64,000 nt of DNA, taken from Eledone cirrhosa (taxonomy: Eukaryota). The notes beneath the pieces were generated by a model, which did not search any database, was not told the origin of the DNA, and saw only the letters and a program-made list of their open reading frames with translations. Location of the stretch: positions 360,406,001 through 360,470,000 of the forward strand of contig OZ024743.1 of assembly GCA_964016885.1 (NCBI GenBank), written 5' to 3'. The position numbers and the translations under genes are program-made. Below, piece by piece: positions 9,864-56,012 of this stretch. Position 1 is the first letter of the stretch. Every line of letters begins with the position of its first letter.

Positions 9864-10547
9864 CTATCCGTTAGGGTATAATGTGGGGCTGTAATACAGG
9901 AAAGTTTTATGCAATTTATGTTTACAAGCCGGAATTGCCTCACATTTTTTGTTTAAGATGTAGTCATTGACGTAGAGTATTTCCAGGGCCTCAGCGGCGC
10001 AGAGGTCGCATTGTCTTTTATTTTCGTAATAGCATCTAGCCCTAGCTAGGATCTCCCAGTGTAACCTATATTGGGTGTGGGTGTCTTTTAGACTCCAGAT
10101 ATAAGCTGAAAGTGACGTCATATTCCTTCTTAAAGCGTTAAGAAAAGAATGGGTGTGCATGTAAAGACGCTGCTTGAATCTATTGGTGGTTAACCCTGTG
10201 TAGGCCCTACGGGACGTGGGTGTTTCGACCTTACATTTGAAGACAATGTTACTGGAGAGGAATTTCCCGGATAGGGCGCAGTCAACCCGATTCCTACAAT
10301 TACAGTTAGTACTTGCTACAGGGTTGCACCTGTTCCTGCGGATAGGTGATTTAGCGAAATATGAAGCAGTGATGTTATGTGCAAGGTTAGGAGTCGTAGA
10401 GTAAGACATTTAATGGTATTTCTATTAAAAATGTTATTATATTTATGTGCTGGGGGAAATGCTTCTTAATAAGGGAGAGAAAGATCTTAGCTAATGGTGT
10501 GGCCACCTCCATACTATTAGGTGGGTTATACCATATAACGCGTCGGG

Positions 10548-25454: not shown

Positions 25455-28400
25455 TTATTATTATTATTATTATTGTTATTGTTATTCCTTGAATCTCAGT
25501 CATTGATGTTGGTTAACTGGAAAGTCCGTTGGATTGAATATCAAGCCACTACCTGCAGCCTCAGATATTCAGGACGTATCGGAGGGTTCTTGCTGTTCCA
25601 AGCAAACATGCCTTTTGAAGCGTTCCAAAAAGCGTGAAGGGGCCGATTTTCTTTAACCATCCCTGGAAACCTTTGGAGATAGTCCCCAGTGCGCCTATGA
25701 CAATCGGGATCACTTTGACTTCATGGCAGTTCCAAATCCTTTTCACCTCCCACTTTAGGTCCTGGTATCGGTTAATTTTCTCCCTCTCCTTCTCTTGCAC
25801 TCTCGTGTCGAACGGGCAGGCCACATCCACAATCAGGCACGATCTTTTTTCTTTGTCCACAACCACCAGGTCAGGTCTATTGTGTTCCAGTTTTTTGTCC
25901 GTCTGTATCCTAAAATCCCACAGTACCTTCACCTGACTGTTCTCCATCACCGCCTCTGGCCTATGCTCATACCATTTCTCAGAATGTGGTAGATTGTTTA
26001 CTTTGCACAGGTGCCAGTGGATCACCCTGCCCATCACATCGTGTCTCCAGCCCTTATAGTGGGTCTGGGCTAGGTGTTTACACTCGGACACAATGTGATC
26101 CACAGTCTCCTCTCTCTCTCCACAGATCCTGCACAGTGGGCTAGCCTCCTCCTTGTAGATATGGTACTTCAACCACTTCGTTTTGAGGGCCTGCTCCTGC
26201 GCAGCCATTAGCATTCCTTCTGTAGCCTTTTTGAGGTCTCCTCTTCTCAACCAGTTCCATGTCTGTGGATCTCTAAATTCAGTTTTCTCAAAGAAGGTAC
26301 TATGAAGGGATTTTCCCTTAAGGCTGCTCTTCCTCCTTGATGTTATTTCCTCCTTGATGTTATTTCCTCCTTGGACATCCCCTGGCCTACTGTCCCCTCC
26401 TTCAGTACAGCTCTGAGCATTGGCTCCTTACTATAGGTCACGTATTTGTATAGGTTGTTTTTCTCCATCTGAACACAGTCCTCTATGCTGATAAGACCTC
26501 TTCCACCCTCAGATCTCCTTAGGTAGAGTCTATCGACATCACTCCTCTTGTGGAACATGTTGTAGATAGTCAATAGCTTCCTAGTCTTCCTATCCATTTC
26601 TTTTTGTTCAGCAACATTCCATCTCAGAATTCCCGCACTGTACCTAATAATAGACACAGCTCGGGAATTTACTGCGCTTATGGCATTTCTGCTGTTCAGA
26701 TGTGACTTCAATACGCTCCTTACTCTCCGAATGTATTCAGTTCTTAACAATTCCTTCATTTTTTTGTTCTTTATGCCATCAGCCTCCAGAACGCCCAAAT
26801 ACTTGTATCCTTCCTCAGAGTCAATTTCCTTTATCATCTCACCTGTTGGTATCTGGATCCCGTTACTTCTGCTCAACCTACCCCTCCTCATCACAATGAC
26901 TCCACATTTACAAATACCAAACTGCATACATATATCACTGCTGAAAATACGGACAGTGTCAACAAGCACATCCAACTCCTTCTCACTTTTCCCGAAGAGC
27001 TTAAGATCGTCCATGAAGAGGAGGTGATTGATGGTAAGCTCTCCCCTTCCCAACTTGTATCCTGCTCTCACTTTTCGCAGCATAATGGTCATGGGCATCA
27101 GGGCAAGGACAAACAACAGAGGGGACAGGCTATCTTCCTGGAAGATACCTCTCTTGATCTTCACGCTTCCCAAGGATACTCCAGTTGATGTCAACTCTGT
27201 CTCCCAGGACCCCATACTCCTGCCTAGCAACTGTCTGATGTTATCTGCCACCCTGAAGATCTCCAGGCTTTTGGTGATCCAAGAATGAGGCACCATGTCA
27301 AATGCCTTTCTGTAGTCTATCCATCCCATGGCAAGATCAGTGTGTCTCCTCCTGCAATTCCCCATTACCATCTTATCAATAAGTAACTGGTCCTTTGTAC
27401 CACGTGACTTCTTTCGGCATCCTTTCTGTTCATCCGGTAACAAGTTGTTTGTGTGGAGGTAATGGTAGATTTCCTCAGACACAATGCTCGTCAACAGTTT
27501 CCACATTACGGACAGACATATGATAGGTCTATAGTTGGTAACATCATTACCCTTGATTCGGTCTTTCATTATCAGAACTGTGGTACCTTTTGTCAACCAC
27601 TCTGGCACCTCACCCGACACCAAGCAGTCATTGAACGTGGCCGTCAGCTTCGGGTGGAGGGATATTAAATGTTTAATTCAATACCCCTTCACACCATCTG
27701 GGCCTGGTGATTTCCAGTTGGTTAGTTTTTTGGCTTGCCCCTTAAGAGTTTCAACTGTGATACTCAAATCAGTCTGTTGCTGTGCCTGCTCACCGATCTC
27801 CCTCTGTACTGTCTCAATCCACCCTGCCTGGGCATTGTGTCTAACATCCTGCTCCCATATTCCTCTCCAGAATGTTTTAGCTTGTTCCGCCCCAGGGATC
27901 AAGTCGTTGCCTCTTTCTTTCCCCTCAAGCTGTCCAAACAGCATCTTCTGGTTGTTGTCGAACATGCGGTTCTGTTTATACTGACTGACTCTGTTCTCGT
28001 ATCGCCTGATTTTGGCACTCTTTGCTACAATGCGTTGCTTCAATTCCTCTATGATAATATTTAGCTTTTTACTCCTAGTTTTGTATTTTATTTCCAGTCT
28101 ATTTTTAGTGCCTATGTTTTTTAGTGTCCCATTCAGTAGTGACTCAAGCTTTCCTATGTCATTTCTCATTTCCCCGATTTGCCCACTCAGTCGCTTCTTC
28201 CACCACGGCTCTGCTCTTTCTTGTCTGTTGTTTCCTCTCGCTTTTATACCAAGTAGTTTCCTCACCGTATTTGCTGTTGCTTTGAGGATATTGTTGCACT
28301 GGTGAAGACTCCTCGCCTCAAGGTATGGGATGACTTTGTTTACCTTAGCTGTTGTTTCTTTTAACTTTTTCCTGTCTACAAATCTTAGGTTCATAGGTCT

Positions 28401-30040
28401 CCCACTATCATTGTTCAACTCATCTACCACTAAATTTAGGATGTCAACCGAATCTTGTCCTAGCCCGTCAGCATTCATCTCCTCAGTGGCCGTATCTCTG
28501 TTCCAGGTATTATTTATCTCAGTATTCAGATCATTGTCTGCTTCGGGTGGTTCCTCCGTTCTCAGGACCTCCTCACCTTCATTTCCCGCCGGCTCGCTTG
28601 TCTGGCATACTACACCCGCCATCTCCAAGCCATTCTCTCTGCTCAGTTCCTCCAGTTCCAGCTCGCTTATCCACCCATTAGTTCTTATTACCCGAGCCTG
28701 CCCGGCCAATTTTTGTTCATCTAATTTAAATAAACCAATCTCGTTCCAGATGTTATGCATCCGTCTCCTGTAGCCCCTCTCCTTGGGGTTACTTTTCAGG
28801 TAGCATTGCATAACAGTTCTATTCAATTCTTTCGTCCAGTTGGTTCTGGCCCCTTTCCTTCTTCTTCTTCCTCCAACATCAGCAGTATTTGGTTGACAGT
28901 CAGGTTCCTGCTGCTGAGCCAGGGGGCACCTGTTGGGTGAGAGTCTGTCACATGACGTTCTAGTCTCCATTTCACCGTTATTCGAACTGTTTATGTTCGA
29001 TATTTAAACACTCTTATCGAGGATTGGCGAATGTATGGTTACATAGCCATCTGTGGATCCGCCATCCCACTTGGCCCTTGTGTGGCATTATCACCACGCT
29101 GTATACGAACACACATAAACAAACAAACACACGGGCAGAAAGGGCCCCAAAAATGAATAAGCATAAGTTTCATTGTAATGTAGTATTCGAATGTCTGACT
29201 TAGTTTTTGTTTTTTAAGTTTTACTTTTTCCCCCCTCTTCTCTGTCCGTCCGCCTTCTTCTCTCTTCATTCTTATTTTTTTAACGTTTTTGGGGTTTCTT
29301 TTTTTGTTTTTGTTTTTCTCTGTTTGTTTTTCGCGTTTTTTGCTGTTGTTGCTGTGCTGCTTTGGTTTTGTTGTTTGTTTTTTCTTTTTTCTTTTGAGTC
29401 TATCTATATATTTTGATGCCTTCCTCTTTGTTAGTAGTAGGAATTCTATAATGTGGAAGTGGCAGCCAGCAGAGACTGGCGGCGTTGGCGATACTGAGAC
29501 AGTGGTGGTGGTGATGTCGATACCGAGGCAGTGGTGGCGGTGATGCGACCGTATTACTGTAGTGATGGTGCTGTAGCGGTGGCAGCAGCAGTGAAGGAGT
29601 CAAGGGGTGGTGGCGGCGGTGATGGGATAGTGGTGGTAATGATGGCCGTAGTGAGCGGTGGTGGTGAAGGTGAAAATGCTGTTGTGTTTAGTGTACACAG
29701 ATGATGGGGTGGGTGGTGTATCTAGTTTCTGGTGTTGGTGAGTTTAGCTGTCCTATATAGTGTAGCCAGAGGAGAGGAGGGGGGGGGGGGGTTTCTTCTT
29801 CTTCCATTTATAGCCATTTTTTTTTTTTGGATATACAGTGTACAATACAAAGTTGAATATTTGAATATTTGAGCCTTATAACAATATATTTTGGGTCCGA
29901 ATTTTTTGGGGCTCAAGCCGGGTGCTTTACGTAGCATTTGTACTAAGAGTTGTTATTTCACAAATGATTTAAATATGTTAAAAATTCAAAACTTACGGGA
30001 GCGATTTCATGACCTCCGTCACCTCGTGCGTCTTCTTCCC
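25455..30040 (-). mobile_element. R4/Dong-like RLE non-LTR retrotransposon, copy 1 (ORF 25561-28970 disrupted)
   Basis: Colinear with copy 2. TGG>TGA stop at 27678 and a 17-nt duplication frameshift near 26340-26373. (TAA)n tail at 25455-25485. Confidence 0.93.
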
Positions 30041-33000
30041 TATTATTATTATTATTATTATTATTATTGTTATTCCTTGAATCTCAGTCATTGATGTTGG
30101 TTAACTGGAAAGTCCGTTGGATTGAATATCAAGCCACTACCTGCAGCCTCAGATATTCAGGACGTATCGGAGGGTTCTTGCCGTTCCAAGCAAGCATGCC
30201 TTTTGAAGCGTTCCAAAAAGCGTGAAGGGGCCGATTTTCTTTAACCATCCCTGGAAACTTTTGGAGATAGTCCCCAGTGCGCCTATGACAATCGGGATCA
30301 CTTTGACTTCATGGCAGTTCCAAATCATTTTCACCTCCCACTTTAGGTCCTGGTATCGGTTAATTTTCCCCCTCTCCTTCTCTTGCACTCTCGTGTCGAA
30401 CGGGCAGGCCACATCCACAATCAGACACGATCTTTTTTCTTTGTCCACAACCACCAGGTCAGGTCTATTGTGTTCCAGTTTTTTGTCCGTCTGTATCTTA
30501 AAATCCCACAGCACCTTCACCTGATTGTTCTCCATCACCGCCTCTGGCCTATGCTCATACCATTTCTCAGAATGTGGTAAATTGTTTACTTTGCACAGGT
30601 GCCAGTGGATCACCCTGCCCATCACATCGTGTCTCCAGCCCTTATAGTGGGTCTGGGCTAGGTGTTTACACTCGGACACAATGTGAGCCACAGTCTCCTC
30701 TCTCTCTCCACAGATCCTGCACAGTGGGCTAGCCTCCTCCTTGTAAATATGGTGCTTCAACCACTTCGTTTTGAGGGCCTGCTCCTGCGCAGCCATTAGC
30801 ATTCCTTCTGTAGCCTTTTTGAGGTCTCCTCTACTCAACCAGTTCCATGTCTGTGGATCTCTAAATTCAGTTTTCTCAAAGAAGGTACTATGAAGGGATT
30901 TTCCCTTAAGGCTGCTCTTCCTCCTTGATGTTATTTCCTCCTTGGACATCCCCTGGCCTACTGTCCCCTCCTTCAGTACAGTTCTGAGCATTGGTTCCTT
31001 ACTATAGGTCACGTATTTGTATAGGTTGTTTTTCTCCATCTGAACACAGTCCTCTATGCTGATAAGACCTCTTCCACCCTCAGATCTCCTTAGGTAGAGT
31101 CTATCGACATCACTCCTCTTGTGGAACATGTTGTAGATAGTCAATAGCTTCCTAGTCTTCCTATCCATTTCTTTTTGTTCAGCAACATTCCATCTCAGAA
31201 TTCCCGCACTGTACCTAATAATAGACACAGCTCGGGAATTTACTGCGCTTATGGCATTTCTGCTGTTCAGATGTGACTTCAATACGCTCCTTACTCTCCG
31301 AATGTATTCAGTTCTTAACAATTCCTTCATTTTTTTGTTCTTTATGCCATCAGCCTCCAGAACGCCCAAATACTTGTATCCTTCCTCAGAGTCAATTTCC
31401 TTTATCATCTCACCTGTTGGTATCTGGATCCCGTTACTTCTGCTCAACCTACCCCTCCTCATCACAATGACTCCACATTTACAAATACCGAACTGCATAC
31501 ATATATCACTGCTGAAAATACGGACAGTGTCAACAAGCACATCCAACTCCTTCTCACTTTTCCCGAAGAGCTTAAGATCGTCCATGAAGAGGAGGTGATT
31601 GATGGTAAGCTCTCCCCTTCCCAACTTGTATCCTGCTCTCACTTTTCGCAGCATAATGGTCAAGGGCATCAGGGCAAGGACAAACAACAGAGGAGACAGG
31701 CTATCTTCCTGGAAGATACCTCTCTTGATCTTCACGCTTCCCAAGGATACTCCAGTTGATGTCAACTCTGTCTCCCAGGACCCCATACTCCTGCCTAGCA
31801 ACTGTCTGATGTTATCTGCCACCCTGAAGATCTCCAGGCTTTTGGTGATCCAAGAATGAGGCACCATGTCAAATGCCTTTCTGTAGTCTATCCATCCCAT
31901 GGCAAGATCAGTGTGTCTCCTCCTGCAATTCCCCATTACCATCTTATCAATAAGTAACTGGTCCTTTGTACCACGTGACTTCTTTCGGCATCCTTTCTGT
32001 TCATCCGGTAACAAGTTGTTTGTGTGGAGGTAATGGTAGATTTCCTCAGACACAATGCTCGTCAACAGTTTCCACATTACGGACAGACATATGATAGGTC
32101 TATAGTTGGTAACATCATTACCCTTGATTCGGTCTTTCATTATCAGAACTGTGGTACCTTTTGTCAACCACTCTGGCACCTCACCCGACACCAAGCAGTC
32201 ATTGAACGTGGCCGTCAGCTTCGGGTGGAGGGATATTAAATGTTTAATCCAATACCCCTGCACACCATCTGGGCCTGGTGATTTCCAGTTGGTTAGTTTT
32301 TTGGCCTGCCCCTTAAGAGTTTCAACTGTGATACTCAAATCACTTTGTTGTTGTGCCTGCTCACCGATCTCCCTCTGTACTGTCTCAATCCACCCTGCCT
32401 GGACATTATGTCTAACATCCTGCTCCCATATTCCTCTCCAGAATGTTTTAGTTTGCTCCGCCTCAGGGATCAAGTCGTTGCCTCTTTCTTTCCCCTCAAG
32501 CTGTCCAAACAGCATCTTCTGGTTGTTGTCGAACATGCGGTTCTGTTTATACTGACTGACTCTGTTCTCGTATCGCCTGATTTTTGCACTCTTTGCTACA
32601 ATGCGTTGCTTCAGTTCCTCTATGATAATATTTAGCTTTTTCCTCCTAGTGTGGTATTTTATTTCCAGTCTATTTTTAGTGCCTATGTTTTTTAGTGTCC
32701 CATTCAGTAGTGACTCAAGCTTTCCTATGTCATTTCTCATTTCCCCGATTTGCCCACTCAGTCGCTTCTTCCACCACGGCTCTGCTCTTTCTTGTCTGTT
32801 GTTTCCTCTCGCTTTTATACCAAGTAGTTTCCTCACCGTATTTGCTGTTGCTTTGAGGATATTGTTGCACTGGTGAAGGCTCCTCGCCTCAAGGTATGGG
32901 ATGACTTTGTTTACCTTAGCTGTTGTTTCTTTTAACTTTTTCCTGTCTACAAATCTTAGGTTCATAGGTCTCCCACTATCATTGTTCAATTCATCTACCA

Positions 33001-34503
33001 CTAAATTTAGGATGTCAACCGAATCTTGTCCTAGCCCGTCAGCATTCATCTCCTCAGTGGCCGTATCTCTGTTCCAGGTATTATTTATCTCAGTATTCAG
33101 ATCATTGTCTGCTTCGGGTGGTTCCTCCGTTCTCAGGACCTCTTCACCTTCATTTCTCACTGGCTCGCTTGTCTGGCATACTACACCCGCCATCTCCAAG
33201 CCATTCTCTCTGCTCAGTTCCTCCAGTTCCAGCTCGCTTATCCACCTATTAGTTCTTATTACCCGAGCCTGCCCGGCCAATTTTTGTTCATCTAATTTAA
33301 ATAAACCAATCTCGTTCCAAATGTTATGCATCCGTCTCCTGTAGCCCCTCTCCTTGGGGTTACTTTTCAGGTAACATTGCATAACAGTTCTATTCAATTC
33401 TTTCGTCCAGTTGGTTCTGGCCCCTTTCCTTCTTCTTCTTCCTCCAACATCAGCAGTATTTGGTTGACAGTCAGGTTCCTGCTGCTGAGCCAGGGGGCAC
33501 CTGTTGGGTGAGAGTCTGTCACATGACATTCTAGTCTCCATTTCACCGTTATTCGAACTGTTTATGTTCGATATTTAAACACTCTTATCGAGGATTGGCG
33601 AATGTATGGTTACATAGCCATCTGTGGATCCGCCATTCCACTTGGCCCTTGTGTGGCATTATCACCACGCTGTATACGAACACACATAAACAAACAAACA
33701 CACAGGCAGAAAGGACCCCAAAAATGAATAAGCATAAGTTTCATTGTAATGTAGTGTTCGAATGTCTGACTTAGTTTTTGTTTTTTAAGTTTTAGTTTTC
33801 CCCCCTCTTCTCTGTCCGTCCGCCTGCTTCTCTCTTCATTCTTATTTTCTTTACGTTTTTTGGGGTTTTTTTTTGTTTTTGTTTTTCTCTGTTTGTTTTT
33901 CTCGTTTTTTGCTGTTGTTGCTGTGCTGCTTTGGTTTTGTTGTTTGTTTTTTCTTTTTTGTTTTGAGTCTATCTATATATTTTGATGCCTTCCTCTTTTT
34001 TAGCAGTAGGGATTCTATACTGTGGTGGCAGCAGCCAGCTGGGAGAGTGGTGGAATGGCGGCGGTAGCGATACTGAGACAGTGGTGGTGGTGATGTCGAT
34101 ACCGAGGCAGTGGTGGCGGTGATGTGACCGTATTACTGTAGTGATGGTGCTGTAGCGGTGGTAGCAGTGAAGGAGTGAAGGGTGGTGGCGGCGGTGATGG
34201 GATAATGGTGGTAATGATGGCCGTAGTGAGCGGTGGTGGTGAAAATGCCGTTATCTGGCTGTTGTGTTTAGTGTACACATGTGATGGGGTGGGTGGTGTA
34301 TCTAGTTTCTGGTGTTGGTGAGTTTGGCTGTTCTATATAGTGTAGACAGAGGAGGGGGGGGTGTTCTTCTTCCATTTATAGCCATTTTCTTTTTTGGATA
34401 TACAGTGTACAATACAAAGTTGAATATTTGAATATTTGAGCCTTATAACAATATATTTTGGGTCCGAATTTTTTGGGGCTCAAGCCGGGTGCTTTACGTG
34501 TGC
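30041..34503 (-). mobile_element. R4/Dong-like RLE non-LTR retrotransposon, copy 2
   Basis: Single long ORF with RT, CCHC and RLE; (TAA)n tail at 30041-30073; 5' end abuts (ATT)n at 34504-34573. Confidence 0.95.
30149..33541 (-). CDS. Retrotransposon polyprotein: reverse transcriptase, CCHC zinc knuckle, restriction-like endonuclease (1130 aa)
   Basis: KSPGPDG, YRPIICL, EQKGC, WIDYRKAFDMVPH, IFQEDSLSP, HLLFMDDLK, YKYLG, CRIC-x8-H-x4-C, RHD, RPD-x12-D. Confidence 0.95.
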   Translation of the reverse strand: METRMSCDRLSPNRCPLAQQQEPDCQPNTADVGGRRRRKGARTNWTKELNRTVMQCYLKSNPKERGYRRRMHNIWNEIGLFKLDEQKLAGQARVIRTNRWISELELEELSRENGLEMAGVVCQTSEPVRNEGEEVLRTEEPPEADNDLNTEINNTWNRDTATEEMNADGLGQDSVDILNLVVDELNNDSGRPMNLRFVDRKKLKETTAKVNKVIPYLEARSLHQCNNILKATANTVRKLLGIKARGNNRQERAEPWWKKRLSGQIGEMRNDIGKLESLLNGTLKNIGTKNRLEIKYHTRRKKLNIIIEELKQRIVAKSAKIRRYENRVSQYKQNRMFDNNQKMLFGQLEGKERGNDLIPEAEQTKTFWRGIWEQDVRHNVQAGWIETVQREIGEQAQQQSDLSITVETLKGQAKKLTNWKSPGPDGVQGYWIKHLISLHPKLTATFNDCLVSGEVPEWLTKGTTVLIMKDRIKGNDVTNYRPIICLSVMWKLLTSIVSEEIYHYLHTNNLLPDEQKGCRKKSRGTKDQLLIDKMVMGNCRRRHTDLAMGWIDYRKAFDMVPHSWITKSLEIFRVADNIRQLLGRSMGSWETELTSTGVSLGSVKIKRGIFQEDSLSPLLFVLALMPLTIMLRKVRAGYKLGRGELTINHLLFMDDLKLFGKSEKELDVLVDTVRIFSSDICMQFGICKCGVIVMRRGRLSRSNGIQIPTGEMIKEIDSEEGYKYLGVLEADGIKNKKMKELLRTEYIRRVRSVLKSHLNSRNAISAVNSRAVSIIRYSAGILRWNVAEQKEMDRKTRKLLTIYNMFHKRSDVDRLYLRRSEGGRGLISIEDCVQMEKNNLYKYVTYSKEPMLRTVLKEGTVGQGMSKEEITSRRKSSLKGKSLHSTFFEKTEFRDPQTWNWLSRGDLKKATEGMLMAAQEQALKTKWLKHHIYKEEASPLCRICGEREETVAHIVSECKHLAQTHYKGWRHDVMGRVIHWHLCKVNNLPHSEKWYEHRPEAVMENNQVKVLWDFKIQTDKKLEHNRPDLVVVDKEKRSCLIVDVACPFDTRVQEKERGKINRYQDLKWEVKMIWNCHEVKVIPIVIGALGTISKSFQGWLKKIGPFTLFGTLQKACLLGTARTLRYVLNI

Positions 34504-42799: not shown

Positions 42800-42866
<67 letters not shown>

Positions 42867-42870
42867 TAGC

Positions 42871-43794
42871 GCATCCTAGCGCGTCTCACAAACTTACACC
42901 ACTAAACATAGCAGCCAGGTTTATTTGACATTTGAAATAGCTCAACAAATTAACGGAGCCGAATATATCAAAGGTATATATTGAGTTAGGAACTCCTAAT
43001 AATCTCTTACAACAAAATAGCTCTAAGAAAGAGATATTTCCGAGCCGTATATTATAACAGAATATAAAAGAAAAACGAACAAAGATATATACATAAATGT
43101 GTTCAAATGGTAAGGGACCAGATTCGCTAAGGTGAAAAGAATGCTAACTATAGACAATTGGGTTTGCTTGTCTCAATTTAAGAAAGAATCAAGAAAATAA
43201 ATACAAACCGGAATTGTGGTAACTACCAATCACCCAGACAATTTGTTGTTGTTTCGCAATGTTAATTGTGAATATAATTACCAATTCAAGCTCATCAGTG
43301 GATGATGAATCGGTATCCTAGACACTTCTAAGTATATTAAAACACTGAATAGTGTGCTCTATATAATAGCGCACATGGCATCCTAGCGCGTCTCACAAAC
43401 TTACACCACTAAACATAGCAGCCAGGTTTAATCGACATTTGAAATAGCTCAACAAATTAACGGAGCCGAATATATCAAAGGTATATTTTCAGTTAGGAAC
43501 TCAAAATAATCTCTTACAACAAAATAGCTCTAAGAAAGAGATATTTTCGAGCCGTATATTATAACAGAATATAAAAGAAAAACGAACAAAGATATATACA
43601 TAAACGTGTTCAAATCTTAAGGGACCAGATTCGCTAAGGTGAAAAGAATACTAACTATAGACAATTGGGTTTGCTTGTCTCAATTTAAGAAAGAATCATG
43701 AAAATAAATACAAACCGGAATTGTGGTAACTACCAATCACCCAGACAATTTGTTGTTGTTTCGCAATGTTAATTGTGAATAGAATTACCAATTG
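42871..43794 (-). mobile_element. Non-coding hammerhead-bearing tandem element, 507-bp unit x ~1.8 (retrozyme-like)
   Basis: GCATCCTAGCGCGTCTCAC at 42871 and 43378; (TA)n adjacent on the left and about 60 nt beyond the right end; no ORF. Confidence 0.85.
43229..43306 (-). ncRNA. Type I hammerhead ribozyme (full stem III)
   Basis: Minus strand ATCATCCA-CTGATGA-GC..GC-GAAA-CAA-caacaaa-TTG-TC-TGGGTGAT; stems I, II and III pair and the cleavage triplet is GUC. Confidence 0.85.
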
Positions 43795-43853
43795 AAGGTC
43801 ACTTTCTTTTTCTTTGACTTTTTCTTTTTCTTTTTCTTTTATATTCTGTTATA

Positions 43854-43922
<69 letters not shown>

Positions 43923-43927
<5 letters not shown>

Positions 43928-44395: not shown

Positions 44396-44663
44396 TGTAT
44401 CCTATATATACACATATACTTATATATATATATATATATATATACAATTAAGTTAAAGTGTACATCTACATATGTATACGGAAGTATTAGTATGCATATA
44501 AATACACACATGTATACATATGTACATGTACTCAGCTTTTCACTAGACACTTTACAGTGAGTGTCAGCTAGTCTGTATGTAACCACACAGACGGACCGGG
44601 TTTTAGAGTCATACGGGTTTTCAAGGAAACACATTTCCTCTATTCTCCAGAGGGCCAGACAGG

Positions 44664-44708
44664 AATATTGAACTAGTTTCGATGTTATTACATCTCATCA
44701 GCAATATT
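44664..44708 (-). ncRNA. Minimal type I hammerhead ribozyme, unit 1 (GUU site)
   Basis: AATATTG-CTGATGA-GATGT aata ACATC-GAAA-CTAG-TT-CAATATT; palindromic stem III ACTAGT. Confidence 0.85.
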
Positions 44709-45132
44709 TACCCATCTTCCGGCTTCTCTGGAGAATTGTAAAAGCACATATCGTTATATGCTTTTTCTATGAAAATTAGTAGTGGGTAGACTAATTTGCA
44801 TAGAACGTGAGTCATTGTACGCACCGGTTCAGCGGAAACGATAAAAACAAATAACGAAACGAAATTAAATTTCGTTTCGCTTCTAACTCACTTTTGTATG
44901 ACTGACGCTTAAACAATTAAGTTAAAGTGTACATCTACATATGTATACGGAAGTATTAGTATGCATATAAATACACACATGTATACATATGTACATGTAC
45001 TCAGCTTTTCACTAGACACTTTACAGTGAGTGTCAGCTAGTCTGTATGTAACCACACAGACGGACCGGGTTTTAGAGTCATACGGGTTTTCAAGGAAACA
45101 CATTTCCTCTATTCTCCAGAGGGCCAGACAGG

Positions 45133-45177
45133 AATATTGAACTAGTTTCGATGTTATTACATCTCATCAGCAATATT
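45133..45177 (-). ncRNA. Minimal type I hammerhead ribozyme, unit 2 (GUU site)
   Basis: Same sequence as unit 1. Confidence 0.85.
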
Positions 45178-45601
45178 TACCCATCTTCCGGCTTCTCTGG
45201 AGAATTGTAAAAGCACATATCGTTATATGCTTTTTCTATGAAAATTAGTAGTGGGTAGACTAATTTGCATAGAACGTGAGTCATTGTACGCACCGGTTCA
45301 GCGGAAACGATAAAAACAAATAACGAAACGAAATTAAATTTCGTTTCGCTTCTAACTCACTTTTGTATGACTGACGCTTAAACAATTAAGTTAAAGTGTA
45401 CATCTACATATGTATACGGAAGTATTAGTATGCATATAAATACACACATGTATACATATGTACATGTACTCAGCTTTTCACTAGACACTTTACAGTGAGT
45501 GTCAGCTAGTCTGTATGTAACCACACAGACGGACCGGGTTTTAGAGTCATACGGGTTTTCAAGGAAACACATTTCCTCTATTCTCCAGAGGGCCAGACAG
45601 G

Positions 45602-45646
45602 AATATTGGACTAGTTTCGATGTTATTACATCTCATCAGCAATATT
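45602..45646 (-). ncRNA. Minimal type I hammerhead ribozyme, unit 3 (canonical GUC site)
   Basis: As unit 1, but G at plus-strand 45609 gives GAAACTAGTC. Confidence 0.9.
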
Positions 45647-46005
45647 TACCCATCTTCCGGCTTCTCTGGAGAATTGTAAAAGCACATATCGTTATATGCT
45701 TTTTCTATGAAAATTAGTAGTGGGTAGACTAATTTGCATAGAACCTGAGTCATTGTACGCACCGGTTCAGCGGAAACGATAAAAACAAATAACGAAACGA
45801 AATTAAATTTCGTTTCGCTTCTAACTCACTTTTGTATGACTGACGCTTAAACAATTAAGTTAAAGTGTACATCTACATATGTATACAGAAGTATTAGTAT
45901 GCATATAAATACACACATGTATATATATATATGTATGTATCCTGAGGATCCGCATAAGGTGAAACCTTTGTTCTCGGTTTGGTGAACTAACTGTTGTGGA
46001 ACTAC

Positions 46006-46051
<46 letters not shown>

Positions 46052-46662
46052 AGGTTATAGTTCACTTGAAGCATTGTGTAATGAGGTATAAACGTTTGAA
46101 TATGTGTAATAAAGCCAAAACAATGCAGGTATGGACATAGAAAAAAGAATGCAATTGTAAAAGATATTGTTGACAATTCGTCCTTTACCTTAGATTTATT
46201 TAAATGTCCTTAATTTTCGAGATAATATCTCTTCTTCAGATGGAAATAAAGGTCTCAAACCAGCGTTCTAAATATCTTGCCAAGCCATGCTAACAGAAAA
46301 TAGTATAGAGTATCTGTTTATCTCTAATGACAAAGAGTTAAAATTAGGTGGATAAAGAGTAGTCTCCCTTTAAAAGGGGTTTGTTTAGGTTTTTTTTAAA
46401 TTTTTTTAAATTTTTTATATTTTATATACATGCCTGTATAAGTGTGTGGGAGAATGCATGAAGGTGTAAGTATGTGAGTGTGTGTGTGTGAGTGTGAAAA
46501 GATAAGTCTATTCGTAAATGTGGGGGATAGGTGTTATCTGGTGTTAGAACTGGTTATGTGTGTGTATGTGTGAGAGAGAATAAGTGGAGGTGTAAGCGTG
46601 TGTGTGTGCGCGTGCGTGTGTGTGTGTGGGGGGGGGGGGTAAATATGGGGCTAGATGCCCTA

Positions 46663-49005
46663 TCAGGTTATAAATTGGGTGTTGAGTTCTTGTCTATTAT
46701 TGAATGGTGGTTGTGTTTTATCTATAATTAGTGCTTCCTTAATTCTAAGATTGCCGAGGTTTCTTTCCTTAGTTTCTATCCTAACTGTTATGTTTTTGTC
46801 GGTGTTTTTGCATTTAGCTAGGTGTTTCTTAAATGAGGAAGCGTTAGTATTGAGGTGTTCTTTTATTCTTATGTGGAGTGGTCTGGTGGTGCTACCTACG
46901 TAGAAGTTGTTGCATTTGTCACACTCTAGTCTGTATACGACGTAAGCCTGGTGGCATAGGTCTGTGTCGTTGATGGGGCAGTTGGCTAGTCTGCAGCAGT
47001 TGTCATGTCTGGTGGAGTGTCTCTTGGCCAGCCGTCCGCGCAGAGAAGGACCCGAGTGGGCCAGTTGGATATCCAGTCCCTCTCGTCTGATGGCTCTGCG
47101 GATGGCTGTTGTTGTTTCTTCACTGAAGTCTGGGAGCTTCAGGAAGCAAGTGTTAGTGCCTCGGGTGTGGTGTCCTCTGTTCTTTCTGGCACGGTTTGTG
47201 GTGGATGTCGTGTATCCGTTCAGTTTGAGTACTTCCAGGAGATGTGTGGTGTGTGTGTCTCGGTCTCTAGCGTCGGTGCATTTGTTCCGGATACGTGCCA
47301 GTTCGTTCCTTATGTATCCGAACTTGGCACCGAGTGGGAGGTCCGATCTGAAATGTACGAACAGGTCCCTGCTGGCGGCTTTTTTATAGAAGCAGGTGTG
47401 GATGCTGCCTTCCTCTGTTACCCTGAGTTGGAAGTCCAGTAGGGATAGGGATCCGCGGTCATCGGGGTGTTCCATGCTGAACTTTATACTGGCGTCCATG
47501 CTGGAGAATGTTGTGTATATTTTATCTGCCTCCTCACGGGATGATGTAAGGATGAGTATGTCATCTACATATCGGGTGAAGAAGGCATGGGAATGGCAGA
47601 TGTTGAGGGCTCGGCATTCTAGCTGGCTCATGTAGGTGATGGCCAGCAGGCCCGATAGGCTGGATCCCATGGGTAATCCTGTTGTCTGTCTGTATGTGTG
47701 GTGGTGGAAGGTGAAGTACGTGTTGTCTACTGTGAAGGACAAAAGCTGGTGTATGTCCGTCGGGTGGAGGCCGTAGCAGTGAATGTCCTCTGCGACCACG
47801 CAGTCCGTCAATAAATCGACAGCTGGATGAGCGGGGACTGTAGTGTAGAGGGAGACAACGTCGAGGCTGAAAGCGTATTTATTTAGTTTAAGTTGTTCTG
47901 GCTGGAGTTGGTGTAGTCTACGTATAACTTCGTCGGAGCTACTGACATGCCCGGGAAAGGTGGAGAGTAGAGGCTTGAGGACCTGGGAGAGGAGCCAGGA
48001 AATTTTGTATAGGGGTCCTTCTATGCTAGAGACGATGGGTCTTATTTGCGTCTTAGTACTATTCTTGTGCGTCTTGATGAGGTGGTAGAAAGTGGGCAGT
48101 CTGCTATTTCTAGTGGTGTAGTTGAGCTTAACTTTATTTGGGAGTTGTCTTCTCCTACAGATATCGAACCAAATGGAGTTGGTCTGTTTTTCGATCTGGG
48201 CTGCGGTCATGTCCGGGATCACTGTGTATAATTCACTGTCGCTTAGGTGTTCAAAGGCTAGGTTATTGTATGTGGCTTGAGAGATGACGCAAGACTCTTT
48301 ACCTTTGTCGGATGGTAAGTATATAAGTTCCCTATTCCGTAGGTTCTTCAGTGCGAGTTGTTGTGTCGTGGAGAGGTTTGGGGCTATCTTCTTCTGTTTC
48401 CGTAAGATGTTAAATACGGAATGTTTTAGTCTCGAGAGTTTTTCTTCAAGCTCGCGGTTGGCAGGCGGTAGACAGAGTGGGCGATCTAGTTGGTATATCG
48501 GGAATCTGGGTTTGATGGATTCCGTGGTGTTGTTGTCGAAAGTCGATATCCATTTTAGTTGGTAGGCAGCCCGACAGAAATTCGTTTCTATGTCGAGCCA
48601 TATTTTGTCGTCCAGTCTCTGTTTCAATATGAACTTGGGACCCAGGCTGAGGAGGTCTAATTCCTCTCGGGAGAGGGATCCTGTCAAGTCTGTGACGAGG
48701 TGTTTTGCGTCAGGTGTGTTGTTGGTCGGGGCGCCGCTAGGTTCGGTGTTGGTACCGTCTTGTTCGCCTCTGTTGGTGTTTAGAGTTGGGATGTTGTTAA
48801 GACAGTTGGCCGTCCTGAGTTTGAGAAATGTTTGCGTTAGACGTATTTTCTCGTAATCTCGGCGGTGGTGGTATGACCTGTCTATAGTGGCGGAGATGAT
48901 TCTGGACAGAGGTTCTGGGGTTTCAGCGAGTTGTGGTACAAGGCTGGAAATAGTCCGTATGTGATGTAGCGTGCGGTGTAGGTGTTGTATGAGTTTTCTT
49001 AAAAC
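46663..49005 (-). CDS. Penelope-like reverse transcriptase + GIY-YIG endonuclease (5' truncated at the inversion junction)
   Basis: LSLGPKF, PSDKG, LIKTHK, RPIVS, SLDVVSLYT, GLPMGSSLS, RYVDDI, LLDF, VVYRLECDKCNNFYVGSTTRPLHIRIKEH. By manual translation the frame stays open upstream of the listed start (48687) to about 49005. Confidence 0.9.
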   Translation of the reverse strand, partial: VLRKLIQHLHRTLHHIRTISSLVPQLAETPEPLSRIISATIDRSYHHRRDYEKIRLTQTFLKLRTANCLNNIPTLNTNRGEQDGTNTEPSGAPTNNTPDAKHLVTDLTGSLSREELDLLSLGPKFILKQRLDDKIWLDIETNFCRAAYQLKWISTFDNNTTESIKPRFPIYQLDRPLCLPPANRELEEKLSRLKHSVFNILRKQKKIAPNLSTTQQLALKNLRNRELIYLPSDKGKESCVISQATYNNLAFEHLSDSELYTVIPDMTAAQIEKQTNSIWFDICRRRQLPNKVKLNYTTRNSRLPTFYHLIKTHKNSTKTQIRPIVSSIEGPLYKISWLLSQVLKPLLSTFPGHVSSSDEVIRRLHQLQPEQLKLNKYAFSLDVVSLYTTVPAHPAVDLLTDCVVAEDIHCYGLHPTDIHQLLSFTVDNTYFTFHHHTYRQTTGLPMGSSLSGLLAITYMSQLECRALNICHSHAFFTRYVDDILILTSSREEADKIYTTFSSMDASIKFSMEHPDDRGSLSLLDFQLRVTEEGSIHTCFYKKAASRDLFVHFRSDLPLGAKFGYIRNELARIRNKCTDARDRDTHTTHLLEVLKLNGYTTSTTNRARKNRGHHTRGTNTCFLKLPDFSEETTTAIRRAIRREGLDIQLAHSGPSLRGRLAKRHSTRHDNCCRLANCPINDTDLCHQAYVVYRLECDKCNNFYVGSTTRPLHIRIKEHLNTNASSFKKHLAKCKNTDKNITVRIETKERNLGNLRIKEALIIDKTQPPFNNRQELNTQFIT

Positions 49006-49151
49006 CCCTAAACAAACCCCTTTTAAAGGGAGACTACTCTTTATCCACCTAATTTTAACTCTTTCACATTAGAGACAGAACAGATACTCTATACTATTTC
49101 CTGTCAGCATGGCTTGGCAAGATATTTAGAACGCTGGTTTGAGACCTTTAT

Positions 49152-49190
49152 TTCCCTCTGAAGAAGAGATATTATCTCGAAAATTAAGGA
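49152..49190 (+). ncRNA. Hammerhead-like motif in the Penelope pseudo-LTR (inverted twin at ~46207-46245)
   Basis: CTGAAGA-A-GAGAT att ATCTC-GAAA-ATTA-AGG; stem II is clear, stems I and III are weak. Confidence 0.5.
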
Positions 49191-49304
49191 CATTTCAATA
49201 AATCTAAGGTAAAGGACGAATTGTCAACAATATCTTTTACAATTGCATTCTTTTTTTCTATTTCCATACCTGCATTGTTTTGGCTTTATTACACATATTC
49301 AAAT

Positions 49305-49388
<84 letters not shown>

Positions 49389-49512
49389 AGGAGGTGAGTT
49401 TTATTGTAGTGCAATAAAGCAATGCAGATATCGAATAAGAAGCACTCTACAGTTTGTAGGACTGGTGTATACATAATGTATAAGATCAAAAGATGGTTAA
49501 AAGAGTTCCATG

Positions 49513-49583
49513 TATTTTATTATGCGCATTTCAAAAACAAATATCATCATGCAATAACATTTGTGTTTTCATCAGATAAAATA
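49513..49583 (-). ncRNA. Minimal type I hammerhead ribozyme (left arm)
   Basis: Reverse complement of 49648-49718. Confidence 0.8.
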
Positions 49584-49647
49584 GGAAGACATGATATGAA
49601 GTTTAAAAACACTTACAAGTGTTTTTAACCTTCATATCATGTCTTCC

Positions 49648-49718
49648 TATTTTATCTGATGAAAACACAAATGTTATTGCATGATGATATTTGTTTTTGA
49701 AATGCGCATAATAAAATA
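49648..49718 (+). ncRNA. Minimal type I hammerhead ribozyme (right arm)
   Basis: TATTTTAT-CTGATGA-AAAC..CAAATGTTAT..ATGATATTTG.TTTT-GAAA-TGCGCA-TA-ATAAAATA; 8-bp stem I, palindromic ATGCGCAT stem III, AUA site. Confidence 0.8.
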
Positions 49719-49755
49719 CATGGAACTCTTTTAACCATCTTTTGATCTTATACAT

Positions 49756-49837
<82 letters not shown>

Positions 49838-50029
49838 TAAATCTACCAAAATTTTACGGTAGTGTCCAATCCGTATGAAGAACTCAATGTAATGCGGATA
49901 TCATGAAAAGAAGAGGTGCATTCAAAAATCACTTTCGGTGAAATATAAACGGAAAACAGAGTCAAGATAAATTATTAAAAAAATAAGGAATAAACAAAGA
50001 AACAGTTCCTTATATTAAACAAAAAAAGT

Positions 50030-50170
50030 TCATTATTTTACGATCGTTTCTAGGACATATATGTGTTAGAATTGGTATGCATATTCAAAAGATCTATGTA
50101 CAAAATTATACAAACTATCAGAGTGAATATACATACCTTCACATATATATGCTGTCTTCAGAAATAATGA
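50030..50170 (-). ncRNA. Hammerhead ribozyme candidate with very long stem II (left arm)
   Basis: Reverse complement of 53765-53905. Confidence 0.65.
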
Positions 50171-50425
50171 TGCTTGTTTATTGATAATAACAACAATTCA
50201 AAATAATAGGTCTGTTTGGGAACAGATTTTAAATAGACCAATGAAATAAAGATTGAGATACATACAAATTTATCAAGAAAATACAGTTAGGTGTGTATAT
50301 ATGTATGTAAATACGCTCACAGATGTGCATAAAAGTGTATGCTCATATGTATACGTATAGTGAAAAAGTGTATGTAAATATAAAATTTAGGGCTAAAGTA
50401 TCTGTATGTCTGTAATCAACAGACA

Positions 50426-50471
<46 letters not shown>

Positions 50472-50924
50472 AGTATATGAATATTGAGGCGCTCAAATAA
50501 ACACGCCCACACACACTTACATTTAGATGCGGAAGTAAAAGAGGTAAGGGAGTATAGTAATTAAAGGAAAGTGTCAATCTCGACATACTTATAAAAATGT
50601 ATCAATAAATTAGAAAAAAAAAATAAATAAAAAATAAATAAAAAAATGTTTTTTATAGAAGGAAAAAACTCAAGAAAAGAAGACAAAAAAAGACAAAAAA
50701 GGTGGAGGGGGGTACGTACATACACAGACACGCATGTCTCACAAAAGAAACAAAAAAACATAAAAGAGACACATAAAATACACACGCACATTTACACATA
50801 CATACGTTCGATACGTACATACATACACACACACATACAATACTTACACTCACGCATATTGACCTGTTTGTATGCACACACATAAAAATAAGTAAAACAT
50901 ATACCCATACATATAAATATTCAC

Positions 50925-50961
<37 letters not shown>

Positions 50962-51094
50962 TACCCATGTATATATACAACCACACACACACTCAGATAT
51001 ACATATATATAGACATACACACACATATATACACAGTCAGACACATATACACATATATACACATACATACACACATCTCTACACATACATATAC

Positions 51095-51153
<59 letters not shown>

Positions 51154-52930
51154 TACATATGTATTTTTATACTCACATACAAACACACATACATACATAC
51201 ACACTTACATACACATACACACATCCACGCTTACATATACATATAATTATTGGGGGGGGGTGAAGGGGGATTAAATTTATTAGTGGGAAATAGTAAATAT
51301 ACATACACACTTACATACACATCCATACATCCACGCTTACATATACATATAATTATTGGGGGGGGGTGAAGGGGGATTAAATTTAATAGTGGGAAATAGT
51401 AAATATATAGGTTTCAAGGAACATAGAATACTAACCTGCTGTTAAAGCTTTATATGTGTTTACTTAGTGGTATCTGTTTTATGAAATGGTATTTGTAAGA
51501 AGGAAAGCCAAATTATGTATTTTAATATAAGTAGAATATTAATTATAGTTTAACTAAAATAAAAATAGTTAATATATTAATTTCTATGGTGTATACTAAT
51601 TAGGTTTATAATATTTAAAGCGGAATTTTGAAGTTAAACAGTAGTAGAGTATTAATTATAGCATAACTAAATTAAAAATAATTACATATATTTACATGAT
51701 GGTATCAATTTTAGGAAATGAATTTTGTAAGAGGGAAAGCCAAATTAAGTAGTTCATCGGTAGTAGATTATTAATTATAGGTTAACTAAAATAAAAATTA
51801 TATATTAATTTCTATAGTATATGTTAATTAGGTTTATATTATTTAAAGCAGAATTTTGTATTTTATCTATAGTATAATTTTAATTATAGGTTAACTAAAT
51901 TAAAATGAATCTATATATTAATTTGTAAAGTATATATTAATTAGGTATATATTTAAAAGTTTTTCTCAGTTTATGATTACACGATATTTTGCATTTCATC
52001 TGTATTAGAATTTTAATTATAAGTTAACTAAATTAAAATTATAGGTTAACTAAATTCAAATTAAATTATATATTAATTTCTAAATTGTATATTAATTAGG
52101 TTTATAATATTAAAAAGTTTTTCTCCGTTTTTAATTACACGATATTTTGTAAATATATAGATTAATTTTAATTTAGTTAACATATAATTAAAATTCTACT
52201 ATAGATAAAATACAAAATTCTGCTTTAAATATTATAAACCTAATTAACATATACTATAGAAATTAATATATAATTTTTATTTTAGTTAACCTATAATTAA
52301 TAATCTACTACCGATGAACTACTTAATTTGGCTTTCCCTCTTACAAAATTCATTTCCTAAAATTGATACCATCATGTAAATATATGTAATTATTTTTAAT
52401 TTAGTTATGCTATAATTAATACTCTACTACTGTTTAACTTCAAAATTCCGCTTTAAATATTATAAACCTAATTAGTATACACCTTAGAAATTAATATATT
52501 GACTATTTTTATTTTAGTTAACCTATAATTAATATTCTACTTATATTAAAAAACATAATTTGGCTTTCCTTCTTACAAATACCATTTCCTAAAACAGTTA
52601 CACTAAGTAAACACATATAAAGCTTTAACTGCAGTTTAGTATTCTATGTTCCTTGAAACCTATATATTTACTATTTCCCACTAATAAATTTAATCCCCCT
52701 TCACCCGCCCCCAATAATTATATGTATATGTAAGCGTGGATGTGTGTATGTGTATGTAAGCGTGTATGTATATTTATTATTTCCCACTAATAAATTTAAT
52801 CCCCCTTCACCCCCCCCCCAATAATTATATGTATATGTAAGCGTGGATGTGTGTATGTGTATGTAAGTGTGTATGTATGTATGTGTGTTTGTATGTGAGT
52901 ATAAAAATACATATGTATGCATATATATGT

Positions 52931-52986
<56 letters not shown>

Positions 52987-53091
52987 GTATATGTATGTGT
53001 AGAGATGTGTGTATGTATGTGTATATATGTGTGTGTATGTCTATATATATGTATGTCTGAGTGTGTGTGTGGTTGTATATATACATGGGTA

Positions 53092-53123
<32 letters not shown>

Positions 53124-53439
53124 GGTGTATATTTATATGTATGAGTATATGTTTTACTTATTTTTATGGGTGCATACAAACAGGTCAATATGCGTGAGTG
53201 TAAGTATGTGTATGTGTGTGTGTATGTATGTACGTATCGAACGTATGGATGTGTAAATGTAAAATTTTTTATTTATTTTTTATTTTTTTTTTTTTCTAAT
53301 TTATTGATACATTTTTATAAGTATGTCGAGATTGACACTTTCCTTTAATTACTATACTCCCTTACCTCTTTTACTTCCGCATCTAAATGTAAGTGTGTGT
53401 GGGCGTGTTTACTTGAGCGCCTCAATATTCATATACTTA

Positions 53440-53509
<70 letters not shown>

Positions 53510-53764
53510 TGTCTGTTGATTACAGACATACAGATACTTTAGCCCTAAATTTTATATTTACATACACTTTTTCACTATACGTATGCATATGAGCATACAC
53601 TTTTATGCACATCTGTGAGCGTATTTACATACATATATACACACCTAACTGTATTTTCTTGATAAATTTTTATGTATCTCAATCTTTATTTCATTGGTCT
53701 ATTTAAAATCTGTTCCCAAACAGACCTATTATTTTGAATTGTTGTTATTATCAATAAACAAGCA

Positions 53765-53905
53765 TCATTATTTCTGAAGACAGCATATATATGTGAAGGT
53801 ATGTATATTCACTCAGATAGTTTGTATAATTTTGTACATAGATCTTTTGAATATGCATACCAATTCTAACACATATATGTCCTAGAAACGATCGTAAAAT
53901 AATGA
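53765..53905 (+). ncRNA. Hammerhead ribozyme candidate with very long stem II (right arm)
   Basis: TCATTATTT-CTGAAGA-[104 nt, CATATATATGTG..CACATATATG]-GAAA-CGATCG-TA-AAATAATGA; perfect 9-bp stem I, palindromic ACGATCGT, GUA site; the stem II closing pair is a C-A mismatch. Confidence 0.65.
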
Positions 53906-53962
53906 ACTTTTTTTGTTTAATATAAGGAACTGTTTCTTTGTTTATTCATTATTTTTTTAATA

Positions 53963-54950
<988 letters not shown>

Positions 54951-55182: not shown

Positions 55183-55947
55183 TATTATAACAGAATATAA
55201 AAGAAAAACGAACGGAGCCGAATATAACAGAATATAAAAGAAAAACGAACACAGATATATACATATATGTGTTTAAATCGCAAGGGACCAGATTCGCTAA
55301 GGTGAAAAGAATACTAACTATAGACAATAGGGTTTTCCTGTCTCAATTTAAGAAAGAATCAAGAAAATAAATACAAACCGGAATTGTGGTAACTACCAAT
55401 CATCCAGTCAGCTTGGTGCTGTTTCGCAATACTAATTAATTGTGAATAGAAATACCAATTCTTGCTCATCAGTGAGTGACAAATTAGACACTTCTAACCA
55501 TATTAAAGGACTGAATAGTGTGCTATACATAATAACGCACATGGTATCTTAGCGTGTCACACAAACTTACACCACTAAAAATAGCAGCCAGGTTTATTCA
55601 ACATTTGAAATAGCGCAACACATTAACGGAGCCGAATATATCAAAGGTATATATAGGTATATATCAAATACCTTTGATATATATATTTGTCACCCACTGA
55701 TGACCAAAAATTGAGATTTCTATTCACAATTAATTAGTATTACGAACAGCACCAAGGCGACTGGCTGATTGGTAGTTACCACAATTCCGGTTTGTATTTA
55801 TTTTCTTGATTTTTGTTTAAATTGAGACAGGCAAACCCTATTGTCTATAGTTAGTATTCTTTTCGCCTTAGCGAATCTGATCCCTTGCGATTTCAACACA
55901 TATATGTATATATCTGTGTTCGTTTTTCTTTTATATTCAATTATAAT
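55183..55947. mobile_element. Second copy of the 507-bp family: circularly permuted, with an inverted partial copy
   Basis: 55183-55653 matches 43050-43377 then 42871-42980; 55669-55947 is inverted; hammerheads at 55409-55480(-) and 55689-55769(+) both have GAC at the cleavage triplet. Confidence 0.85.
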
Positions 55948-56012
55948 ATGTATATATATATATGTACATATATGTATATATATATATGTATATATATGTA
56001 TATATATATATG

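What the first reader, a model, noticed from the sequence alone, without database searches (positions are those of the whole stretch)
42871..43794. 507-bp unit with a full hammerhead, present elsewhere in a circularly permuted phase
Seen: the order here is A-B-C-HHR-D-A-B-C (stopping inside the second ribozyme), while the copy at 55183 runs C-HHR-D-A across the same D/A junction. Inference: different start phases on one cyclic unit are what reverse transcription of a circular or concatemeric RNA would give.
Basis: partly seen in the sequence, partly recalled or inferred. Interest (0 to 1): 0.75.

Follow-up and report, generated by a model that had tools for sequence, protein, structure and literature searches.

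The report
Two-start retrozyme hitch-hiking on Hydra Penelope
This is one copy of a non-coding 507-base repeat with a hammerhead ribozyme motif, scattered through a large animal genome; its copies end at two fixed sites that carry the same short signal as an abundant Penelope-type jumping gene, which likely copies the repeat from a probably circular RNA into both sides of a DNA break.

Summary
The 507-bp unit, the minus-strand type I hammerhead (GUC at 43239-43237) and the second locus at 55183 are real. It is a dispersed non-LTR retrozyme family (about 3,200 first-look candidates) with sister families of about 500-550 bp. Phase is not freely permuted: 94 of 105 insertions end 3' at one of two sites 85 nt apart, abutting (TA)n. 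5' ends are random, and 61 of 105 carry an inverted arm. Where both outer ends lie at those sites, 34 of 37 use opposite sites. The focal copy's 3' end is an outlier. The cyclic-template idea survives: 30 of 30 copies read through the ribozyme cut, and units of one insertion share variants. No coding element has this unit as its pLTR. An abundant Hydra-clade Penelope family has no alignable sequence but shows GCTC...GAGC just beyond both of its own two ends (89 nt apart), so it is the likely mobiliser. Circle versus uncleaved tandem RNA, cleavage and expression are untested. The class is published; this scan reported the same pattern on other DNA of this genome.

The parts
42802..42864 (.). 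(TA)n target tract at the element's 3' side
42863..42882 (-). 10-nt stutter (two copies) at the 3' end of the main arm; atypical start at about circle position 364
   Evidence: slipped initiation is inferred
42873..43794 (-). Main arm, 1.8 units of the 507-nt non-coding unit
   Evidence: 403 of 417 identical
42938..42963 (-). Start site S2 (42963; family 3' end) and CGGCTC...GAGCTA signal 2; repeated at 43445-43470
   Evidence: loose ends into (TA)n at 42963 in 20 and 21 contigs of one sample
43018..43048 (-). Start site S1 (43048; family 3' end) and CGGCTC...GAGCTA signal 1; repeated at 43525-43555
43229..43306 (-). Complete type I hammerhead motif with long stem II; predicted cut after GUC (43239-43237)
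   Evidence: cleavage untested
43736..43794 (-). 5'-truncated second hammerhead (lacks CUGAUGA and the 5' strand of stem I)
43795..43822 (.). T-rich filler between the arms
43823..43858 (+). Short inverted arm whose outer end is S1
43850..43925 (.). (TA)n target tract at the other side
55183..55654 (-). Second family copy, 3' end at S1 with a short rearranged duplication; ribozyme triplet GAC
55668..55680 (+). Very short inverted piece ending at S2 and running into TA
   Evidence: read by eye
55690..55949 (+). Opposite-strand arm or adjoining insertion, circle 439 to 188 (S1), then (TA)n
9864..10409 (-). 5'-truncated copy of the Hydra-clade Penelope family proposed as mobiliser (endonuclease end)

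Best explanation
This is a truncated copy of a non-autonomous, hammerhead-bearing retroelement (non-LTR retrozyme) whose copies end at two fixed sites next to (TA)n, and which is likely mobilised in trans by a Hydra-clade Penelope-like element copying a cyclic, probably circular, RNA. Shown: the 507-nt non-coding cyclic unit; two 3' end sites 85 nt apart, each 1-3 nt before GCTC...GAGC; random 5' ends; inverted second arms using the other site; read-through of the ribozyme cut; shared variants within an insertion; the same signal beyond both ends of the Hydra family. Inferred: a rare copy with two ribozymes is transcribed, self-cleaves and is ligated into a circle; the Hydra protein binds the twin signals, cuts both strands of (TA)n and primes one cDNA from each cut, one at S1 and one at S2; the cDNAs stop at random and are joined head to head. 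The focal copy has one complete ribozyme and is probably a dead end.
For: 3' ends at S1/S2 in 94 of 105 insertions; opposite sites in 34 of 37 two-armed ones, Fisher p 2e-7. 5' ends uniform in the ribozyme-selected sample, Rayleigh p 0.59; (TA) beyond the 3' end in 27 of 29. 0 of 30 stop at the cut; 2 of 105 5' ends near it versus 3.7 expected. Diagnostic-site agreement is 311 of 354 between tandem units and 364 of 397 between arms, against 0.53 between insertions. GCTC occurs only twice in the unit, once after each site; TA tracts without it are rarely used. Sister families keep the homologous sites and signal. The Hydra family has two ends 89 nt apart, each followed by TTGCTC or TTGGCTC. Papers: PMC11167929 (two internal start sites, both strands cut and extended), PMC8557442 (inverted 5' copy, one-sided tail, (TA)n, Hydra motifs), PMC7229834 (retrozyme circRNAs).
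Against: No RNA-level data for this family. The catalytic fold is not the predicted minimum and Rfam misses it. No compensatory change supports the signal hairpins (0 of 16 pairs); their pairing probability is high for signal 1 in families A-C (0.89-1.0) but low for signal 2 in A (0.15) and for both in Hydra (0.25, 0.28). The Hydra link rests on a short motif and geometry, with no alignable sequence. No A>G strand excess (103 versus 163 T>C, ratio 0.92). A few insertions have discordant units (L026 8 of 13, L008 14 of 19). 24 of 61 two-armed insertions have an end at neither site. PMC11167929 found uncleaved RNA to be the main substrate in vitro. Only five coding Penelope families were examined.
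Confidence: 0.7

Rival explanations
1. Same non-autonomous Penelope parasite, but the template is an uncleaved linear read-through transcript of a tandem copy; length is restored by template jumps, and the ribozyme is incidental.
For: PMC11167929: ribozyme mutants insert normally in vitro. The predicted fold is not catalytic. Family C, which has the longest array seen (4 units), has a C-A mismatch in stem I in 25 of 32 ribozymes. Read-through and within-insertion agreement fit this model too.
Against: Each new copy ends before the signal it started from, so a linear-only lineage must shorten each generation (inference). Only 8 of 105 arms span two ribozymes. Core and pairing are kept across families whose stems differ.
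Confidence: 0.17
2. The unit is the pseudo-LTR (solo or duplicated) of a coding Penelope element not yet found.
For: In Xenopus 24 of 57 retrozyme families match repeat-database elements, 21 of 22 of them Penelope termini (10.64898/2026.07.22.740005). The cyclic order ribozyme, S1, tail, S2 is the same as in the Hydra element.
Against: All long arms wrap in the 507 register. Penelope protein hits lie near 24 of 186 loci but come from several families in mixed positions. No alignment to the flanks of five coding families.
Confidence: 0.05
3. It is mobilised by a different Penelope family (Neptune-, Poseidon- or Naiad-like); the Hydra signal match is coincidence or old shared ancestry.
For: Several coding families in this genome also sit in (TA)n; the shared motif is short.
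Against: GCTC within 4 nt after both ends has a chance of about 1e-4. The ends read by eye for the other four families lack it.
Confidence: 0.07
4. A DNA-level satellite or fold-back element spread by recombination, or an assembly artefact.
For: No RNA evidence and no editing asymmetry.
Against: Fixed 3' and random 5' ends, asymmetric arms and dispersal over many contigs. Contigs of public runs (one sample, possibly the assembly's own) show the S2-(TA)n junction.
Confidence: 0.01

Closest known systems
Metazoan non-LTR retrozymes (Cervera and de la Pena 2020, PMC7229834, passages read; Li, Clavereau and Pollet 2026, 10.64898/2026.07.22.740005, parts 1-3 of 5 read)
   Same: Non-coding, AT-rich (34% GC) head-to-tail unit with one type I hammerhead; coexists with Penelope elements; unit length is within the 51-972 bp range of the preprint.
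   Different: Mostly dispersed two-armed insertions of 0.5-2 units rather than arrays; long stem II that Rfam misses; no alignable homology to a coding pLTR (unlike 24 of 57 Xenopus families); end sites and a candidate partner are mapped. Circular RNA and cleavage are not shown here.
Penelope-like element insertions (Craig et al. 2021, PMC8557442, passages and section 11; Frangieh et al. 2024, PMC11167929, parts 1-2 of 4)
   Same: 5' truncation, partial tandems, inverted 5' copy, a tail at one end defined by two internal start sites, (TA)n targets.
   Different: No ORF; the tail is 78-85 nt, not 30-40; each start site is followed by a duplicated signal; the ends merge with the TA target, whereas the Anolis element starts without target homology.
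Hydra-clade Penelope family of this genome (709-aa ORF, e.g. L275, L276)
   Same: Two ends 89 nt apart, each followed by GCTC...GAGC; (TA)n targets; a hammerhead-like motif upstream of site 1.
   Different: Coding, about 3.3 kb; its ribozyme-like core reads CAGAAGA and lies 29 nt rather than 189 nt before site 1; otherwise not alignable.

Membership tests
Non-LTR retrozyme | Type I hammerhead in each unit | tested here: met
   54 of 75 distinct family-A ribozymes have an intact core, triplet and 4-bp stem I. Motif level only.
Non-LTR retrozyme | Head-to-tail non-coding units, low GC, no LTR/PBS/PPT layout | tested here: met
   (no ORF of 100 aa inside the unit). PBS/PPT were not searched separately.
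Non-LTR retrozyme | Two consecutive complete ribozymes (active copy, Li et al. criterion) | tested here: not met
   The focal locus has one; 4 of 105 family arms have two intact by pattern. Met by the family, not by this copy.
Non-LTR retrozyme | Self-cleavage and circular RNA in vivo | not testable with these tools
   Needs RNA data or assays.
Penelope-type insertion | Fixed 3' ends at two sites (tail) and 5' truncation | tested here: met
Penelope-type insertion | Inverted 5'-truncated copy and microsatellite target | tested here: met
   61 of 105; 27 of 29 abut TA.
pLTR of an autonomous Penelope element | Joined to an RT/GIY-YIG ORF or its 3' UTR | tested here: not met
   sample of 186 loci, not the whole genome.
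Hydra clade (candidate partner) | DKT, CxCX5C linker, CxxC and CxH near the C-terminus (PMC8557442 section 11) | tested here: met
   7 of 7 long ORFs; RT core aligns to a Neptune-like RT at E 7e-5; atlas neighbours carry GIY-YIG and RVT_1.
Hydra clade (candidate partner) | RWK motif; placement in an RT tree | tested here: inconclusive
   RWK is absent in 7 of 7; RWR is seen instead. No tree was built; Pfam gives no relevant hit.

The most novel reading that the evidence does not exclude
A superfamily of circular ribozyme RNAs parasitises a Hydra Penelope enzyme through nothing but two tiny duplicated start signals. A dimeric enzyme on one RNA circle primes both ends of a (TA)n break, one subunit per signal. 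That would explain in one rule the one-sided tail and the inverted terminal copy of Penelope elements, and give a minimal cis-signal for loading any RNA on such an enzyme.
Probability: 0.4. Interest if true: 0.72.

Novelty: new variant of a known kind. Interest (0 to 1): 0.5.

Why it matters
Animal retrozymes are proposed to be copied from circles by Penelope enzymes, and the origin of Penelope's tail and inverted copies is called undefined in PMC8557442. This family gives a named candidate enzyme, two mapped start sites, a short shared signal and a one-site-per-end rule, all testable in the published in vitro assay format. In the papers found by five searches and the parts read, I saw no retrozyme matched to a partner by a shared start signal. 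bioRxiv supplements were closed and subscription papers were not searched. The class itself is published, and this scan noted the same pattern in other families of this genome.

Tried and rejected
RNA runs: no RNA holder listed. The depth drop near 43240 in contigs of X1/X3 suggested copies ending at the ribozyme cut; rejected, because 0 of 30 genomic copies stop there and the loose ends there read as variant ribozyme stems. RNA-editing scars: no A>G asymmetry among rare changes. Free permutation: rejected. TA microhomology alone as the end rule: longer TA tracts at circle 139-152, 256-262 and 377-386 are rarely used. Three 5' ends at 376 lie next to a common short repeat; in two of them the unit resumes beyond it, so it looks inserted into the unit. 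The Poseidon-like element at 46663-49068 and three Neptune-like families as owners: no alignment; three scores slightly above shuffles (39 vs 31, 37 vs 34, 36 vs 27) were not inspected. The family-B tally was contaminated by mis-parsed family-A rows and is not used; one search is. Family-B ends (18 of 20 at the two sites) are biased because the query ended at S2. An alternating-unit pattern in the 4-unit array rests on 2 of 21 sites and is not claimed. The bacterial promoter scan is irrelevant; the promoter is unknown. PDB and Pfam gave nothing for the Hydra protein. A by-sequence look-up of earlier findings returned nothing.

Full report
Observation. The window lies in a 3.0-Gb genome (G000:C4) rich in (TA)n; earlier scan notes call it a cephalopod, which I did not test. 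42871-43287 repeats 507 bp later at 403 of 417 positions. The minus strand has a type I hammerhead motif: CUGAUGA, a 36-nt stem II region, GAAAC, stem III, GUC at plus 43239-43237, and an 8-bp stem I. The repeat stops at 43794 inside the second ribozyme. A T-rich filler and a 38-nt inverted piece (43823-43858) follow, and (TA)n lies on both sides. The 55.2-55.9 kb locus has a minus-strand arm and a plus-strand arm; its minus-strand ribozyme has GAC in place of GUC. Rfam does not recognise the focal ribozyme, and the catalytic fold is not the predicted minimum, so activity is open.

Family. The unit gave 3,155 first-look candidates, of which 40 were scored. Exact patterns gave 156, 532 and 353 hits with 0 in the reversed controls. 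I numbered the circle from the first base after GUC. In 29 loci chosen only by the ribozyme pattern (30 fetched, one duplicate dropped), 27 3' ends fall at 180-190 or 270-275, 5' ends are uniform (Rayleigh p 0.59), 27 abut TA and 14 have an inverted arm. Over 105 non-redundant insertions from 121 entries, 46 end at S1, 48 at S2 and 11 elsewhere, the focal copy among the last. 61 have an inverted outer arm. In 37 both outer ends lie at S1 or S2, and 34 of these use opposite sites (Fisher p 2e-7); the other 24 have at least one end elsewhere. Mean identity to the majority is 92.7%.

Template. All 30 copies anchored just after the cut extend at least 36 nt upstream of the anchor, through the ribozyme, and 2 of 105 5' ends lie near the cut against 3.7 expected. 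A cut linear monomer is therefore not the template. 46 of 105 arms exceed one unit; the longest is 1,078 nt. At 25 diagnostic sites, tandem units of one insertion agree at 311 of 354, the two arms at 364 of 397, and different insertions at 0.53; the background within insertions is 0.95. One RNA lineage usually gave both units and both arms, with a few exceptions. This fits a circle or an uncleaved homogeneous tandem. I favour the circle by inference: each copy ends just before the signal it started from, so linear copying alone shortens the lineage, and only 8 of 105 arms span two ribozymes (4 intact). No RNA data were obtained, and there is no A>G asymmetry.

Start signal and sister families. 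Both sites are followed within 1-3 nt by CGGCTC and then GAGCTA; GCTC occurs nowhere else in the unit. Family B (67% identical) and family C (period about 549, up to four units) end at the homologous sites. A pattern for signal 1 has 2,726 exact hits, and both signals recur with variable loops in 41 distinct internal units (the pattern selects for them). Family B has different bases in stems I and III of the ribozyme with pairing kept. Within family A one stem III pair is A-U in 34 and G-C in 30 of 75, possibly one event. The signal hairpins are predictions only: no compensatory change and mixed pairing probabilities.

Partner. No coding element owns the unit: Penelope protein hits near 24 of 186 loci come from several families in mixed positions, and flanks of five coding families do not align. 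An earlier scan note (e1-8805697) pointed to Hydra-type elements, so I tested the family whose remnant lies at window 9864-10409 (62,706 first-look candidates). Seven of seven long ORFs carry DKT, CxCX5C, CxxC, CxH and YRDD, as described for Hydra in PMC8557442 section 11; RWK reads RWR. The RT core aligns weakly to a Neptune-like RT. Of 73 distinct ends, 51 were classed as stopping at a first site and 22 as running through a tail to a second (regex classes, a few misfiled). The first site is followed by TTGCTC...GAGC. 419 copies continue past the second site into GCTC (the pattern required it), and 15 of 15 fetched read TTGGCTCC, mostly followed by CTCGGTTGAGC and then the start codon. The sites are 89 nt apart against 85 here. 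By eye, 9 of 11 Hydra loci with an end on each strand pair a tailed with an untailed end (not verified as single insertions). The chance of GCTC within 4 nt after both ends is about 1e-4.

Mechanism. Most likely (0.7), a rare two-ribozyme copy yields a circular RNA. A Hydra-type protein cuts both strands of (TA)n and starts one cDNA at S1 and one at S2; the cDNAs stop at random and are joined head to head. PMC11167929 shows two internal start sites, cutting and extension of both strands and a predicted dimer for an Anolis element, but also that uncleaved RNA was its main substrate. The linear-tandem rival therefore keeps 0.17. The focal copy started off-site with a 10-nt stutter and has one whole ribozyme, so it is probably a dead end.

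Comparison and verdict. It works like, and meets the sequence-level definition of, a non-LTR retrozyme (PMC7229834, passages; 10.64898/2026.07.22.740005, parts 1-3 of 5). It has the Penelope insertion footprint (PMC8557442, passages and section 11). It is not the pLTR of a coding element in the sample examined. PMC6962438 (two passages) lists 235 hammerheads in giant squid without analysis there. What is added is the two-site, one-per-end rule and a partner linked by signal rather than homology. Earlier notes of this scan report the same on other DNA of this genome; they are not independent support. New variant of a known kind; interest 0.5.

Noticed in passing
window 44444-45928: A 469-bp unit x3.2 (99% identical) with a second, unrelated minus-strand minimal hammerhead (palindromic stem III; GUC in one unit, GUU in two; sub-threshold Rfam HH9). 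Another retrozyme family; its 3' end has no GCTC.
   Followed up: partly
window 46663-49068 (-), repeats 46141-46318 and 49079-49256: Penelope element with an open 801-aa frame (RVT_1 plus GIY-YIG), an inverted pLTR and its own CUGAAGA hammerhead-like motif; unrelated to the 507-bp unit.
   Followed up: partly
window 49468-49763: 147-nt perfect fold-back with a hammerhead-like motif (triplet AUA) on each arm; looks like another two-armed insertion.
   Followed up: no
window 49967-53968: Nested near-perfect inverted repeats forming a palindrome of about 4 kb.
   Followed up: no
window 30149-33574 (-) and 25561-29003 (-): Two tandem copies of a non-LTR element; one has an open 1,141-aa frame with RVT_1.
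   Followed up: no
window 62869-62912 (-): Isolated hammerhead-like motif (CUGAGGA...GAAA, 6-bp stem I, 7-bp stem III, triplet AUA).
   Followed up: no
L262 (G000:C3:4976145-4978245): Four-unit array of family C (549 bp, units 98% alike); family C ribozymes mostly have a C-A mismatch in stem I.
   Followed up: partly
L276:1705-1790: The Hydra family's hammerhead-like motif has CAGAAGA in place of CUGANGA, 29 nt before its first end site.
   Followed up: no
L099, L100, L022: A common short repeat ending in (ATT)n sits at circle 376-381 in three loci; in L099 and L100 the unit resumes beyond it.
   Followed up: no
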